Positions 3,651-62,542 of a DNA stretch of 64,000 bases are shown one piece after another; positions within the stretch are counted from its first letter, which is position 1; every line of letters begins with the position of its first letter. The notes under the pieces were generated by a model, which saw nothing but the letters and a program-made list of their open reading frames with translations, made no database searches and was not told where the DNA came from. The position numbers and the translations under genes were made by a program. The DNA comes from the human T2T-CHM13v2.0 reference genome, Homo sapiens: assembly GCF_009914755.1 (NCBI RefSeq), contig NC_060940.1; one strand, written 5' to 3'.

Positions 3651-3912
3651 GGCTAGATGCGGTGGCTCATGCCTATAATCCTAGCACTTTGGGAGGCCAA
3701 GGCAGACAGATTACTTGAGGTCCAGAGGTCAATTTCCTTGTCTATAAAATGAGAATACGCATCTCCCACAGTAGTAATAGTAGCCAAAGGAGATGATGCA
3801 AGTTACATATGTATACATATGTAACAAACCTGCACGTTGTGCACATGTACCCTAGAACGTGAAGTATAATAAAAAAAAGAAAGAGAGAAAGAAAGAAAGA
3901 AAGAAAGAAAAA
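3651..3912 (+). mobile_element. Composite: truncated Alu head + 88-bp local copy + L1PA 3' terminus with GA-rich tail
   Basis: Alu 3651-3720; copy of 10448-10535 at 3716-3803; L1 3' end 3808-3878. Confidence 0.9.
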
Positions 3913-10015: not shown

Positions 10016-10772
10016 TGGGAAAGCAGTGCCAAGGTGCTGGGCTTCTTCTTGGTCACTGACAAGGGCAGGGTGGGATCAAGGAGCCAGGCAGAAGCCAGTA
10101 TCTGAAGCCAGGCTGCATAAGGACAAAAGGGATATTCACTGCCCCAGATGGGAGGTGCACCTGTCTTGGAGAGGGCACCCTTCTGAAACACCCATTCTCA
10201 TGAGATCAGCCTTAGAATCCAGACACAAGCAAGAGAGGAGCTGAGAATGGCTGAAAGTCAGAACCAGAAGGTAGTTCGGACATCACTGGACCTGACCCAC
10301 TCTGTACAACAAAGAATCAGGTCTGATGACTGGGAGGTCCCTTTGGAGGCGAAATAAATTTGCACTTAAATAGACTGACTTTGGAGTCAGTCTGCCTCCT
10401 TTATCTGGTGTTTATTGTGTGGCAGTGGGCTCATTTCTTAACCTTCCTGAGGTCCAGAGGTCAATTTCCTTGTCTATAAAATGAGAATACCCATCTCCCA
10501 CAGTAGTAATAGTAACCAAAGGAGATGATGCAAGTAAAGTCATATAGTAATGATTATATTCATGGAAGTAGTGAAAATTCTGCTTTGCTGTTGTGCAATC
10601 ACTGAGGTAGAAAATGACAGAGCCTGAGTTAAAACCATGTCTTCAGACCCAGTTCAACATACATGACATTCCAAAAGTCAGTGTGAGAGTGGCTGTCATC
10701 ACGTTGAGAAAAATAAAATATGTGTGAACTTGGGCTGAGCAGGAAAATATCACCATGATCACTGCATTGATC

Positions 10773-14691: not shown

Positions 14692-15073
14692 CAGCAGTCC
14701 CCAATCTTTTTGGCATCAGGGACCGGTTTCCTGGAAGACAATTTTTCCAGGGATGGGGGTGGGAAGGTGGAGGGGGTCGGAGGGTGTCGTGGGGGGTCAG
14801 GAGGGAAATGGTATGAAACTAGGAAATAAGAAATGGGATGAACCTCTTCAATGGCACAGATCTAATGCCAGATCATCAGGCATTAGATTCTCATAAGGAG
14901 CCGGCAACCTAGATCCCTCATATCCCAGTTCACAGTAGGGTTTGGGCTCCTATGAGAATCTAATACCCAGGTGGAGCTCTGGCGGTAATGCTCACTCACC
15001 CGCCACTCACCTCCTGCTGTGCCGCCGGGTTCCTGACAGGACACCTACCCATACGGGTCAGCGATCCGTTCTG
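14692..15073 (+). mobile_element. MER1B-like hAT-Charlie MITE
   Basis: CAG...CTG ends, perfect 8-bp TSD cattacag (14684-14691; 15074-15081), MER1 internal motifs. Confidence 0.85.
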
Positions 15074-15327
15074 CATTACAGAATTAGACAAGGTGATGTT
15101 GCAAGTGCTTAAGGCTATGGGTTTTTAAAAGATAGCCTCAGTGATTGTATGGAATATGGAGGGGTTTGGGATGGGGGCTGGGAGGGAGGCACAGAGGGGC
15201 AGCAAAAAGACCAGTTAGGAGACTTCAGCTGAGAAATGGCGGGTGACAGTCAGTGGAGATGAAGGGAAGTGGGTAGAATTACATGGATGGATAAGCTACT
15301 TTTATGATAGTAAAAGAAGGCAGTTGA

Positions 15328-15684
15328 ACCCAGCATTTTCGGAGGTCAAGGCAGGTGCATTGCCTGAGCTCAGGAGTTCAAGACCAGCCTGTGCAACATG
15401 GTGAAACCCCATCTCTCCAAAAATACACAGAAATTAGCTGGGCATGGTGGTGCGTGCCTGCAGTCCCAGCTACTTGTGGGGCTGAGACGGAGGGATCATT
15501 TGAGCCTAGGGGGTTGAGGCTGCAGTGAGCCGTGTTCATGCCACTGCACTGAGTGGATTGATTCCAATAAAAGCATATATCATTGTGGTAGGGTAGGTGG
15601 GTGGCTGGATAGGGTAGCCTGGGTGACAGAGTGAGTCCCTGTCTCCAAAAAAAAAAAAAGAAAAAAAAAAGGAAGAAAGAAAAA
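15328..15684 (+). mobile_element. AluJ-type element with about 65-bp internal non-Alu insertion
   Basis: Alu consensus interrupted between ccactgcact and agcctggg. Confidence 0.92.
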
Positions 15685-16200
15685 GTCAGTTGTTGATGAT
15701 TCTGGAGTGATTGCTTGAGTGAATGGGCCACTTACTGAGATGTGGAAGTCTGAGGACAGGTTTGGGATTTGATCGTTTTCTTACTGTGCCCAAATGCAGT
15801 GTAAGCCAATCAATCCACCTTATTTGAAAGACAGCCAAACTCTGGGGACACCTAACCTCGTAGGAGATGGTAGCATAGTGGTTAAATGCACAGTCTTTGG
15901 AGTGTGATTGCCTGGGATTGGTTGCATCTCAACAGCTTTCTACCTGTGTGATCCTGACTGGTTGCTTAACCTCTCTGTGACTCAGTTTTTCCCATCTATA
16001 GAATGGGGATAAGGAACCCCAGCTCAGTGATGGTGTGAGAACTAGATGAATGCCGAGCATGTTGCACACACTCATTGAATGTTGCTACTGTGGCTTCCCT
16101 TGCAGTCGTGTCTGAATTCTAGGTCAAACAGTTCTTCTAAGACTGCACCAACCAGGAAAAAGAGGTCATGAGTAAAACAGAGCCAAGGACACTCAGAGGC

Positions 16201-16260
16201 TTTATTATCCACCCCTACCCCCGCCCCACCTACCCTACCACAATGATATATGCTTTTATT
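16201..16260 (-). terminator. PDILT: PDILT polyadenylation signals (AATAAA at 16255-16260 and 16201-16206)
   Basis: Two tttatt on + strand about 70 and 125 nt past the stop; GT/T-rich sequence follows the distal one. Confidence 0.8.
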
Positions 16261-16331
16261 GGAATCAATCCATTCAGAAAATGATGCCAGGATCTGGAAA
16301 ATAAGCATCTTTTTTCCTGGTATTGGAGAAG

Positions 16332-16580
16332 CTAAAGTTCTTCCTTGACTTTTGGTTTCTTCTTTTGCACTGGAGGTCCCTTTGGCTTAGCCACCACCAC
16401 CACCACCTCCTCAGATGTTTTCTTCTTCCCAGCGGGCTCTTCCAGCTTGGATACGTACTTGGTCATGTTCTCCAGCTCAGGCGACTGCTGTTCAGGTAAC
16501 CCTTTCCTCATCATAGGCACCTCCTTTTCCTCAGCTAGCACTTCCTCTTCTATCACTTCATTTTGCTCAACAGACAACAG
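16332..16580 (-). CDS. PDILT: PDILT exon 12 (acidic/basic tail ending KEEL-stop)
   Basis: ttcatag|CTG acceptor, TAG stop at 16332-16334, 249 nt; total CDS 1755 nt = 584 aa + stop; KDEL-like ER retrieval signal. Confidence 0.96.
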   Translation of the reverse strand: MLSVEQNEVIEEEVLAEEKEVPMMRKGLPEQQSPELENMTKYVSKLEEPAGKKKTSEEVVVVVAKPKGPPVQKKKPKVKEEL

Positions 16581-18088: not shown

Positions 18089-18493
<405 letters not shown>

Positions 18494-62036: not shown

Positions 62037-62542
62037 GTAAGCAAAGTAAATTATGTGGAATTTAGAAGATAATTAATGATATGAAGAAAAATAAAACCTG
62101 GAAGGATGATGAGGAACGCCTGACAGGGGGATGGGATAAAATAAGAGGATTTATGCAAAACGAGCAGCTCAGTACCTAGAAGGCAGGAGCCCCTCACGCA
62201 TCACCACCCTGGCCTCATCTCCTAGGGGAGAAAGATCTCCACTCACCCTGCTCCAGCCACACTGGTGTCCCTGCCAGTCCTCCAATACAATGTCTGGGCC
62301 TCTACACTTGTGGTTTCCCCTGTTAGGGAGGCTCTTCACCCAGGTGGACTCAGGGTTCACCCCTTAGCTCGTTCCAGTCTTTGCCCAAATGTCACTTCCA
62401 CAGTTGGGCCTTTCCTGGCCACTTTGTTTAAATTTGTAAGTGCCCCATCCCCCTCTCAGGCGTTCCTCATCCTCCTTCCAGGCTTTATTTTCCTTCATAG
62501 CATTAATTTTCTTCTAAACTCCACATAATTTACTTTGCTTAC
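62037..62542. repeat. 99-bp inverted repeat (62037-62135 / 62444-62542), 308-bp spacer
   Basis: Manual ungapped alignment 92/99. Confidence 0.93.

What the first reader, a model, noticed from the sequence alone, without database searches (positions are those of the whole stretch)
15549..16277. Inverted copy of the PDILT 3'UTR poly(A) signal embedded in a downstream Alu
The Alu is split at ccactgcact|agcctggg by a reverse-complement copy of 16225-16277 (52/53, plus about 14 degenerate nt). The copy covers the proximal AATAAA and the first G-tracts but not the distal AATAAA. Inference: nascent PDILT RNA reading about 620 nt past the 3'UTR arm could form a 53-bp duplex that masks only the proximal signal, acting as a polyadenylation switch or ADAR substrate. 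It also places an AATAAA on the + strand (15566-15571) between PDILT and the UMOD upstream region.
Basis: partly seen in the sequence, partly recalled or inferred. Interest (0 to 1): 0.72.

Follow-up and report, generated by a model that had tools for sequence, protein, structure and literature searches.

The report
Inverted PDILT 3'UTR copy inside Alu
An old Alu just downstream of the testis gene PDILT carries a much younger 65-base insert, mostly a backwards copy of the gene's own 3' end, which looks like an ordinary DNA copying or repair scar rather than a shown regulatory switch.

Summary
Window 15549-15601 is a 52/53 reverse-complement copy of 16225-16277 in the PDILT 3'UTR, 623 nt away. 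These are the only two copies in the whole T2T genome. The copy lies in a 65-nt insert that splits a target-site-duplicated Alu with loss of 2 Alu bases. It contains the proximal AATAAA and the first G-tracts but not the distal AATAAA, the one that fits the RefSeq 3' end at 16188.

The insert is much younger than its host. The Alu shows 38/228 non-CpG differences from an in-window Alu consensus, against 1/53 for the copy. The junctions have 2-nt microhomologies. The 14-nt tail is not a clean continuation of the copy and looks like a mosaic of further short templated patches.

My best reading is a templated inverted insertion from replication template switching or break repair, a known class of mutation.

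A read-through RNA would fold into the duplex in silico at -92 kcal/mol. No tool here can test poly(A) site choice, editing or primate presence/absence, and no paper on this was found. Interest is low to moderate.

The parts
15312..15326 (+). Left target-site duplication of the host Alu
   Evidence: Read: 12 of 15 bases match 15678-15692 (my count by eye, not a tool count).
15329..15550 (+). Host Alu, left piece (5'-truncated, + orientation)
   Evidence: 27 blastn alignments to other Alus of the window start near 15329, and 22 of them stop at 15548-15554. Aligned to the in-window consensus.
15549..15601 (+). Inverted (reverse-complement) copy of the PDILT 3'UTR, 52/53. It reads in PDILT mRNA sense on the + strand. 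Its first two bases (CT) are shared with the Alu as junction microhomology.
15566..15571 (+). AATAAA hexamer brought onto the + strand by the copy
15602..15615 (+). 14-nt tail of the insert; not a clean continuation of the copy and probably a mosaic. The 7-mer at 15603-15609 is the reverse complement of the Alu bases at the break. The 8-mer at 15610-15617 matches the source again at 16230-16237 and overlaps the Alu by AG.
   Evidence: 13 of 14 nt are covered by 7-mers or longer from the two templates; 347 of 20000 shuffles do as well (a post hoc test).
15616..15677 (+). Host Alu, right piece with its A-rich tail
   Evidence: 3 blastn alignments start at 15616-15618.
15678..15692 (+). Right target-site duplication of the host Alu
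   Evidence: Read (12 of 15 with 15312-15326, counted by eye).
16225..16277 (-). Source arm in the PDILT 3'UTR (last exon 16188-16580, coding part ends at 16332)
   Evidence: gene table supplied with the finding.
16255..16260 (-). Proximal AATAAA of PDILT, inside the arm; no annotated transcript end corresponds to it
   Evidence: gene table.
16212..16235 (-). G-quadruplex-type motif (four G-tracts) between the two hexamers. The copy ends at 16225, inside its second tract and just before the longest G-run.
   Evidence: Regex hit.
16201..16206 (-). Distal AATAAA of PDILT, 13 nt upstream of the RefSeq 3' end at 16188; outside the duplex
   Evidence: gene table.

Best explanation
This is the scar of a single, fairly recent mutational event: a templated inverted insertion.

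**Proposed sequence of events (inferred)**
1. A replication stall or double-strand break occurred inside an old Alu that had lain about 0.6 kb downstream of PDILT for a long time.
2. The free 3' end paired through 2 nt (CT) with the opposite strand of the PDILT 3'UTR, 0.7 kb away.
3. It copied 53 nt and came off as it entered the strongest G-run of a G-quadruplex motif.
4. It made one or two further very short copies, one from the break site itself and one from the same source.
5. It rejoined the Alu through 2 nt (AG), with 2 Alu bases lost.

This is the replication or repair template-switch class, variously called FoSTeS, MMBIR, MMB-TI or long-range template switch mutation.

**What is shown and what is inferred**
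- Shown here: the anatomy, the uniqueness of the copy, the direction of copying (3'UTR into Alu) and the age gap between insert and Alu.
- Inferred: the enzymology and the order of the steps.

The complementarity to the proximal poly(A) signal is most likely a by-product with little or no effect on PDILT.
For: - **Insert within an Alu.** The insert interrupts a repeat whose uninterrupted form is known from 22 other copies in the window. Exactly 2 Alu bases are missing, and the Alu has its own flanking target-site duplications.
- **Local, unique source.** Only two copies exist in the genome, 623 nt apart and in inverted orientation.
- **Microhomology.** There are 2 nt of microhomology at each junction.
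- **Tail.** It is not a diverged continuation. Six or more mismatches in 14 nt at the divergence of the other 53 nt has P = 1e-7. It can be tiled from the same two local templates: 13 of 14 nt, with 347 of 20000 shuffles doing as well.
- **Age gap.** The Alu shows 38/228 = 16.7% non-CpG differences from the in-window consensus, against 1/53 between copy and source. P(<=1 difference) is 0.0014 to 0.03 even if only the insert side had changed.
- **Known class.** Passages of PMC8421209 describe germline insertions lying near their template, in inverted orientation and flanked by microhomology. They report about 100 events of >=25 bp per person, some drawn from up to five templates.
- **Not exceptional locally.** The same 64-kb window holds a second unique short local copy, 3716-3803 copied from 10448-10535.
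Against: - The ancestral, insert-free allele was not seen, because no primate or other human genome is reachable with these tools. 'Insertion' rests on the Alu family alone.
- The template is 623 nt away. The tool in PMC8421209 looks only within 100 bp, and the four-point model of PMC5453318 explicitly leaves out long-range and multiple switches. Frequencies for this exact geometry are therefore not documented in what I read.
- The mosaic reading of the tail is post hoc. Two other readings are not excluded: an error-ridden continuation through the distal hexamer that rejoined at the shared AGCCT, or unrelated filler.
- Neutrality is assumed, not tested.
Confidence: 0.7

Rival explanations
1. 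In PDILT pre-mRNA that has not yet been cleaved when polymerase is about 0.7 kb past the gene end, the downstream arm pairs with the 3'UTR arm. This hides the proximal AAUAAA and half of the G-quadruplex motif, shifting cleavage to the distal site. Alternatively, the duplex draws ADAR and is edited or retained.
For: - The duplex dominates the predicted fold and is very stable at -92.4 kcal/mol.
- It covers only the proximal hexamer.
- No further AATAAA/ATTAAA hexamer lies between the distal site and the downstream arm.
- Cleavage half-lives of about 36-42 s in fly cells (passages of PMC10870368) would allow some transcripts to reach the arm.
- Long-range RNA pairing has been linked statistically to 3'-end processing (passages of PMC8052449).
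- Only the distal end is annotated (gene table).
Against: - There is no expression, 3'-end or editing datum of any kind.
- No paper links PDILT with polyadenylation choice, read-through or A-to-I editing. One search found 12 papers, none on this by title or abstract start; two searches found 0 papers each.
- Both hexamers are made 0.6-0.7 kb before the partner arm exists, and they lie only 54 nt apart.
- Use of the distal site needs no masking to be explained.
- The pay-off would be a 54-nt difference in a 144-nt 3'UTR.
- The boundary of the copy coincides with a likely polymerase stop.
- One difference in 53 nt says nothing about selection.
Confidence: 0.08
2. Same kind of scar, but copied from RNA. 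A piece of PDILT transcript, possibly one cleaved at the proximal site, was reverse-transcribed into a break in the Alu by L1 reverse transcriptase or polymerase theta.
For: - The copy ends 30 nt after the proximal hexamer, at the outer edge of where a proximal-site mRNA could end.
- PDILT is a germ-cell gene (testis-expressed by its name in the gene table; the cell type is my recollection), so its RNA is present where heritable events arise.
- The second local copy in the window does abut a young, high-copy L1-like 3' end with a poly(A) tail.
Against: - The insert has no A-tail, no L1 piece and no new target-site duplication; instead the Alu lost 2 nt.
- A source only 623 nt away in cis is what a DNA template switch predicts and what an RNA in trans does not require.
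- The tail includes a patch complementary to the break site itself.
Confidence: 0.12
3. The PDILT piece was picked up when the Alu itself was retrotransposed. The reverse transcriptase jumped from Alu RNA to PDILT mRNA and back, so the insert would be as old as the Alu.
For: Both pieces lie in the same sense on the + strand (Alu sense and PDILT mRNA sense), as such a jump requires.
Against: - Age gap: 16.7% non-CpG divergence of the Alu against 1/53 for the copy. P(<=1) is 4e-7 to 3e-4 if both arms had aged with the Alu, and 0.0014 to 0.03 if only one had.
- Landing 0.6 kb from the donor gene would be a coincidence.
- Only later gene conversion between 53-nt arms could rescue this reading.
Confidence: 0.03
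4. Chance similarity, a shared repeat family, or an assembly artefact.
For: None found.
Against: - 0 of 100 shuffles give any match to the 30-nt core.
- Only two copies exist in 3.1 Gb.
- Among 1391 self-blast alignments of the window, only 2 pairs that are not simple repeats reach >=30 nt at >=94% identity.
- An artefact cannot be excluded formally with a single assembly.
Confidence: 0.01

Closest known systems
Microhomology-mediated templated insertions (MMB-TI; MMBIR/FoSTeS-type template switching), as described in PMC8421209 (passages read)
   Same: An insertion lying near its template, in inverted orientation, with microhomology at the junctions. It is germline, and sometimes built from several templates. 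The size class (>=25 bp) fits.
   Different: The template is 623 nt away, whereas that study searched within 100 bp. The ancestral allele was not seen here. The microhomologies are only 2 nt.
Short template-switch mutations, four-point model (PMC5453318, passages). Follow-up papers on hairpins and de novo miRNAs made this way are PMC8794818 and PMC10710096 (search listing and abstract starts only).
   Same: [quoted passage not shown] No selection is needed to explain the perfect pairing.
   Different: Those events are short-range and single switch-and-return. The authors state that they do not model long-range or multiple switches. Here the stem has a 623-nt loop and one arm lies beyond the gene's poly(A) site.
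Polymerase-theta end-joining templated insertions (TINS; PMC7165422, passages)
   Same: Repeated cycles of priming at tiny microhomologies, short aborted synthesis and re-annealing, with direct or inverted copies of nearby DNA. The 14-nt mosaic tail looks like this.
   Different: TINS are 3-30 bp, single synthesis tracts are rarely more than 10 bp, and they come from DNA flanking the break. A 53-nt tract from 0.7 kb away does not fit.
RNA structures that affect poly(A) site recognition: long-range complementary regions (PMC8052449, passages); the HIV-1 poly(A) hairpin and inverted-Alu 3'UTR duplexes edited by ADAR (both recalled, no call)
   Same: A stem that includes or loops out a poly(A) signal, and a duplex long enough for ADAR.
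   Different: The catalogued structures are conserved and intragenic, or local hairpins, or Alu-Alu pairs within one mature transcript. Here one arm is outside the mature mRNA, the element is young, and no effect is shown.

Membership tests
Alu SINE (host element) | Similarity over most of its length to many dispersed copies of about 300 nt | tested here: met
   27 alignments to other copies in the window; aligned with 22 of them.
Alu SINE (host element) | A-rich tail and flanking target-site duplications | tested here: met
   A-tail at about 15647-15677. Direct repeats 15312-15326 and 15678-15692 match at 12 of 15, read by eye.
Templated inverted insertion by template switching (MMB-TI / FoSTeS / MMBIR type) | Inserted bases are a reverse-complement copy of a nearby sequence | tested here: met
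   52/53, 623 nt away, unique in the genome. 'Nearby' is wider than the 100 bp used in PMC8421209.
Templated inverted insertion by template switching (MMB-TI / FoSTeS / MMBIR type) | Microhomology at the junctions | tested here: met
   CT at 15549-15550 and AG at 15616-17, each shared by Alu and template. At only 2 nt each, this is weak on its own.
Templated inverted insertion by template switching (MMB-TI / FoSTeS / MMBIR type) | Derived state: an allele or outgroup without the insertion | not testable with these tools
   No primate or second human genome is held. The only support is indirect: the Alu family consensus and the age gap.
Polymerase-theta templated insertion (TINS) | Insert of 3-30 bp built from tracts of about 10 bp copied from DNA flanking the break | tested here: not met
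   A 53-nt uninterrupted tract from 0.7 kb away, against passages of PMC7165422. Only the 14-nt tail fits.
L1-mediated chimeric retrocopy (reverse-transcriptase template jump) | Same age as the element it is fused to; poly(A) tail and target-site duplication belonging to the composite | tested here: not met
   The insert is far younger than the Alu, and there is no A-tail at the insert.
Regulatory RNA stem masking a poly(A) signal | Thermodynamic capacity to pair across the signal | tested here: met
Regulatory RNA stem masking a poly(A) signal | Change of cleavage-site use when the stem is broken and restored; conservation or covariation of the pairing | not testable with these tools
   No expression data and no orthologues. 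RefSeq shows only the distal end (gene table).
ADAR substrate | Observed A-to-I sites in the arms | not testable with these tools
   No editing database is held. 0 papers contain both PDILT and A-to-I.

The most novel reading that the evidence does not exclude
A template switch in the ape or human lineage created, in one step and without selection, a 53-bp long-range stem between the PDILT 3'UTR and its read-through region. In spermatids this stem would act on slowly cleaved pre-mRNA. It would hide the proximal poly(A) signal and compete with the G-quadruplex between the two signals, or it would draw ADAR onto the hexamer. If so, 3'-end formation of a fertility gene differs between primates with and without the insert, and a regulatory RNA structure was born by mutation mechanics alone.
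Probability: 0.07. Interest if true: 0.55.

Novelty: new member of a known kind. Interest (0 to 1): 0.24.

Why it matters
- **As a mutation.** It is a clean, well-delimited example of a long-range (0.6 kb), multi-step templated inverted insertion in the human germline. The published short-range detectors I read about would miss this geometry.
- **As biology.** It would matter only if the stem changes PDILT 3'-end formation. That would be a small, lineage-specific effect on a testis gene.
- **Locus context.** It lies between PDILT and UMOD. From memory, with no call behind it, this block is well known from kidney-function association studies. Nothing here links the insert to UMOD.

Tried and rejected
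- **Chance or repeat family.** Rejected.
- **Tail as a diverged continuation of the copy.** Not supported: 7 of 14 in register, 836 of 5000 shuffles do as well, and P = 1e-7 at the divergence of the other 53 nt.
- **Insert acquired when the Alu retrotransposed.** Rejected on age. One caveat applies. The consensus was a majority rule over 22 Alus of this window, so subfamily differences inflate the 16.7% figure; I therefore also give P for 11.7%, 10% and 7%. At 7% with one side only, P = 0.12, which is not significant.
- **A second human or primate copy as contamination in prokaryote assemblies.** 0 matches.
- **Literature on PDILT polyadenylation, read-through or editing.**
  - One search found 12 papers containing both PDILT and polyadenylation. 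Judged from titles and abstract starts only, none is on this topic.
  - Searches found 0 papers each.
  - One search listed none of 12 papers containing PDILT.
- **Supplementary tables not opened.** The conserved complementary regions of PMC8052449 and the dsRNA predictions of PMC11838218 could list this duplex.
- **Not done.** No structure-probing, 3'-end, editing or population data are reachable here.

Full report
**1. The observation**

- The + strand at 15549-15601 is the reverse complement of 16225-16277: 53 nt, one mismatch, 623 nt between the arms.
- A 30-nt core occurs exactly twice in the window, and 0 of 100 dinucleotide shuffles gave a match.
- In the whole 3.1-Gb assembly, the 66-mer 15549-15614 and the full 144-nt PDILT 3'UTR each find only these two places. 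The arms are therefore not members of a repeat family.
- In a self-comparison of the window (1391 alignments), 12 pairs reach >=30 nt at >=94% identity. Ten of them involve the AAAG-type simple repeat at 3872-3910. Only two pairs are not simple repeats, and this is one of them.

**2. The host**

- The flanks are an Alu on the + strand. There are 27 alignments of its left part to other copies in the window, and 22 of them stop at 15548-15554. Three alignments of its right part start at 15616-15618.
- All six other Alus inspected have two bases at that point, CC in four of them. The majority consensus of 22 copies agrees, and these two bases are missing here.
- The insert is therefore 65 nt (15551-15615) if the shared CT is given to the Alu, with a 2-nt loss.
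- The Alu has an A-rich tail and flanking direct repeats at 15312-15326 and 15678-15692 (12 of 15, my reading). It arrived by ordinary retrotransposition.
- Because the Alu continues on both sides of the insert, and the 3'UTR continues as unique sequence on both sides of its arm, copying ran from the 3'UTR into the Alu.

**3. Anatomy of the insert**

- The first 53 nt are the copy. Its first two bases (CT) are also the Alu's last two.
- The remaining 14 nt (15602-15615) are not a straightforward continuation of the source:
  - 7 of 14 match in register.
  - The local alignment score is equalled by 836 of 5000 shuffles.
  - At the divergence of the other 53 nt, six or more mismatches in 14 nt has P = 1e-7.
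- I see three possible readings of the tail, and I cannot separate them without an outgroup:
  - **Mosaic.** A 7-mer at 15603-15609 is the reverse complement of the Alu bases at the break (consensus). An 8-mer at 15610-15617 repeats source bases 16230-16237 and overlaps the Alu by AG. Together they cover 13 of 14 nt, and 347 of 20000 shuffles do as well. This test is post hoc.
  - **Error-ridden continuation.** A 9-mer matches 8/9 the bases just before the distal hexamer, and the source and the Alu share AGCCT after it. Copying may have run through the distal signal with errors.
  - **Filler.**

**4. Age**

- The copy contains no CpG (my reading of its sequence).
- The host Alu differs from the in-window majority consensus at 38 of 228 non-CpG positions (16.7%). 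The other 22 Alus range from 7.0 to 19.3%.
- If the insert were as old as the Alu, 9 changes would be expected on the insert side alone, and about 18 counting both arms. One is seen.
  - P(<=1) = 0.0014 counting one side, and 4e-7 counting both.
  - At 10%, P = 0.03.
  - At 7% counting one side only, P = 0.12.
- The insert is thus much younger than its host.
- One difference in 53 nt gives a pairwise divergence of 1.9%, with a 95% range of 0.05-10.5%. This is too wide to name a lineage.

**5. What it most likely is**

- Every feature fits a templated insertion made by template switching during replication or break repair: a unique local source, inverted orientation, tiny junction microhomologies, a small loss at the target, a mosaic tail, and an origin long after the host element.
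- Passages of PMC8421209 describe this signature: an insertion near its template, inverted, and flanked by microhomology.
  - They report about 100 germline events of >=25 bp in each of two people.
  - Some events draw on up to five templates.
  - Their search is limited to templates within 100 bp.
- PMC5453318 models the single short-range case and states that long-range and multiple switches are left out.
- Polymerase-theta insertions are 3-30 bp, with tracts rarely above 10 bp (PMC7165422). That pathway fits the tail but not the 53-nt tract.
- The copy stops inside a four-tract G-quadruplex motif (16235-16212 on the minus strand), just before its longest G-run. This is a plausible place for a poorly processive polymerase to fall off. 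It explains, without any function, why the proximal hexamer is included and the distal one is not. This last step is inference.

**6. The functional idea**

- On the minus strand the only AATAAA/ATTAAA hexamers in 15000-16400 are at 16260-16255 and 16206-16201. The second lies 13 nt before the RefSeq end 16188 (gene table).
- A 781-nt read-through RNA folds with the long stem in both its minimum-energy and centroid structures: -272.4 kcal/mol against -214.5 +/- 8.2 for shuffles, z = -7.1, with 0 of 20 shuffles as good.
- The arms alone give -92.4 kcal/mol, and -118.3 with their partly paired extensions. Before the partner arm exists, 27 of the 53 arm bases are in weaker local pairs.
- Median cleavage half-lives of 36-42 s were measured in fly S2 cells (PMC10870368, passages). 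Some transcripts could therefore reach the downstream arm uncleaved. How that transfers to human spermatids is unknown.
- Against a switch:
  - Both hexamers are exposed for the same time before the partner arm is made.
  - They are 54 nt apart.
  - Only the distal end is annotated.
  - After cleavage the arms lie on separate molecules.
  - No data or paper bears on PDILT site choice, read-through or editing.
- The + strand AATAAA at 15566-15571 is real, but no + strand transcript is annotated there.

**7. Comparison and verdict**

- The element works like, and by its tested features belongs to, the class of templated inverted insertions. It is a new instance with an unusually distant template and a long tract.
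- It resembles poly(A)-masking stems and ADAR substrates only in its capacity to pair. The defining tests of those classes could not be run.
- I rate it as a real, non-random and well-explained feature of modest interest.

Noticed in passing
window 3716-3803 and 10448-10535: A second short local copy. 3716-3803, in a UMOD intron, is a direct 86/88 copy of 10448-10535, upstream of the main UMOD start. These are the only two copies in the genome. The upstream copy looks like the source, because the old dispersed repeat it lies in seems to continue on both sides; that is my reading, and the repeat's name (MIR) is recalled. The derived copy sits between the first ~68 nt of an Alu, with a shared TGAGGTC at the junction, and a piece at 3804-3872. 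That piece matches at least 40 scored places of 460 candidates genome-wide at 96-99% identity, followed by poly(A) and an AAAG repeat. It looks like a young L1 3' end (name recalled). The whole may be an L1-associated insertion with a locally templated patch.
   Followed up: partly
window ~15860-16020 (+): Between the two arms lies an old dispersed repeat. 33 other genomic places match parts of it at 71-93% identity. It resembles a MIR element (name recalled, not tested).
   Followed up: partly
window 16212-16235 (-): A four-tract G-quadruplex-type motif lies between the two PDILT poly(A) hexamers. G-rich elements downstream of a poly(A) signal are known auxiliary elements (recalled). This would bear on whether the proximal signal is functional.
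   Followed up: no
window 18249-18446 (-) and 15329-15550 (+): The host Alu has an oppositely oriented Alu partner in the last PDILT intron region, at 76% identity over 203 aligned positions. Unspliced read-through RNA could therefore also form an Alu-Alu duplex around the insert.
   Followed up: no
window 62037-62135 and 62444-62542: An inverted repeat of 99 nt, 93% complementary, with 308 nt between the arms. It is the most similar of the 25 longest inverted pairs shown, after the finding itself. I did not examine it.
   Followed up: no
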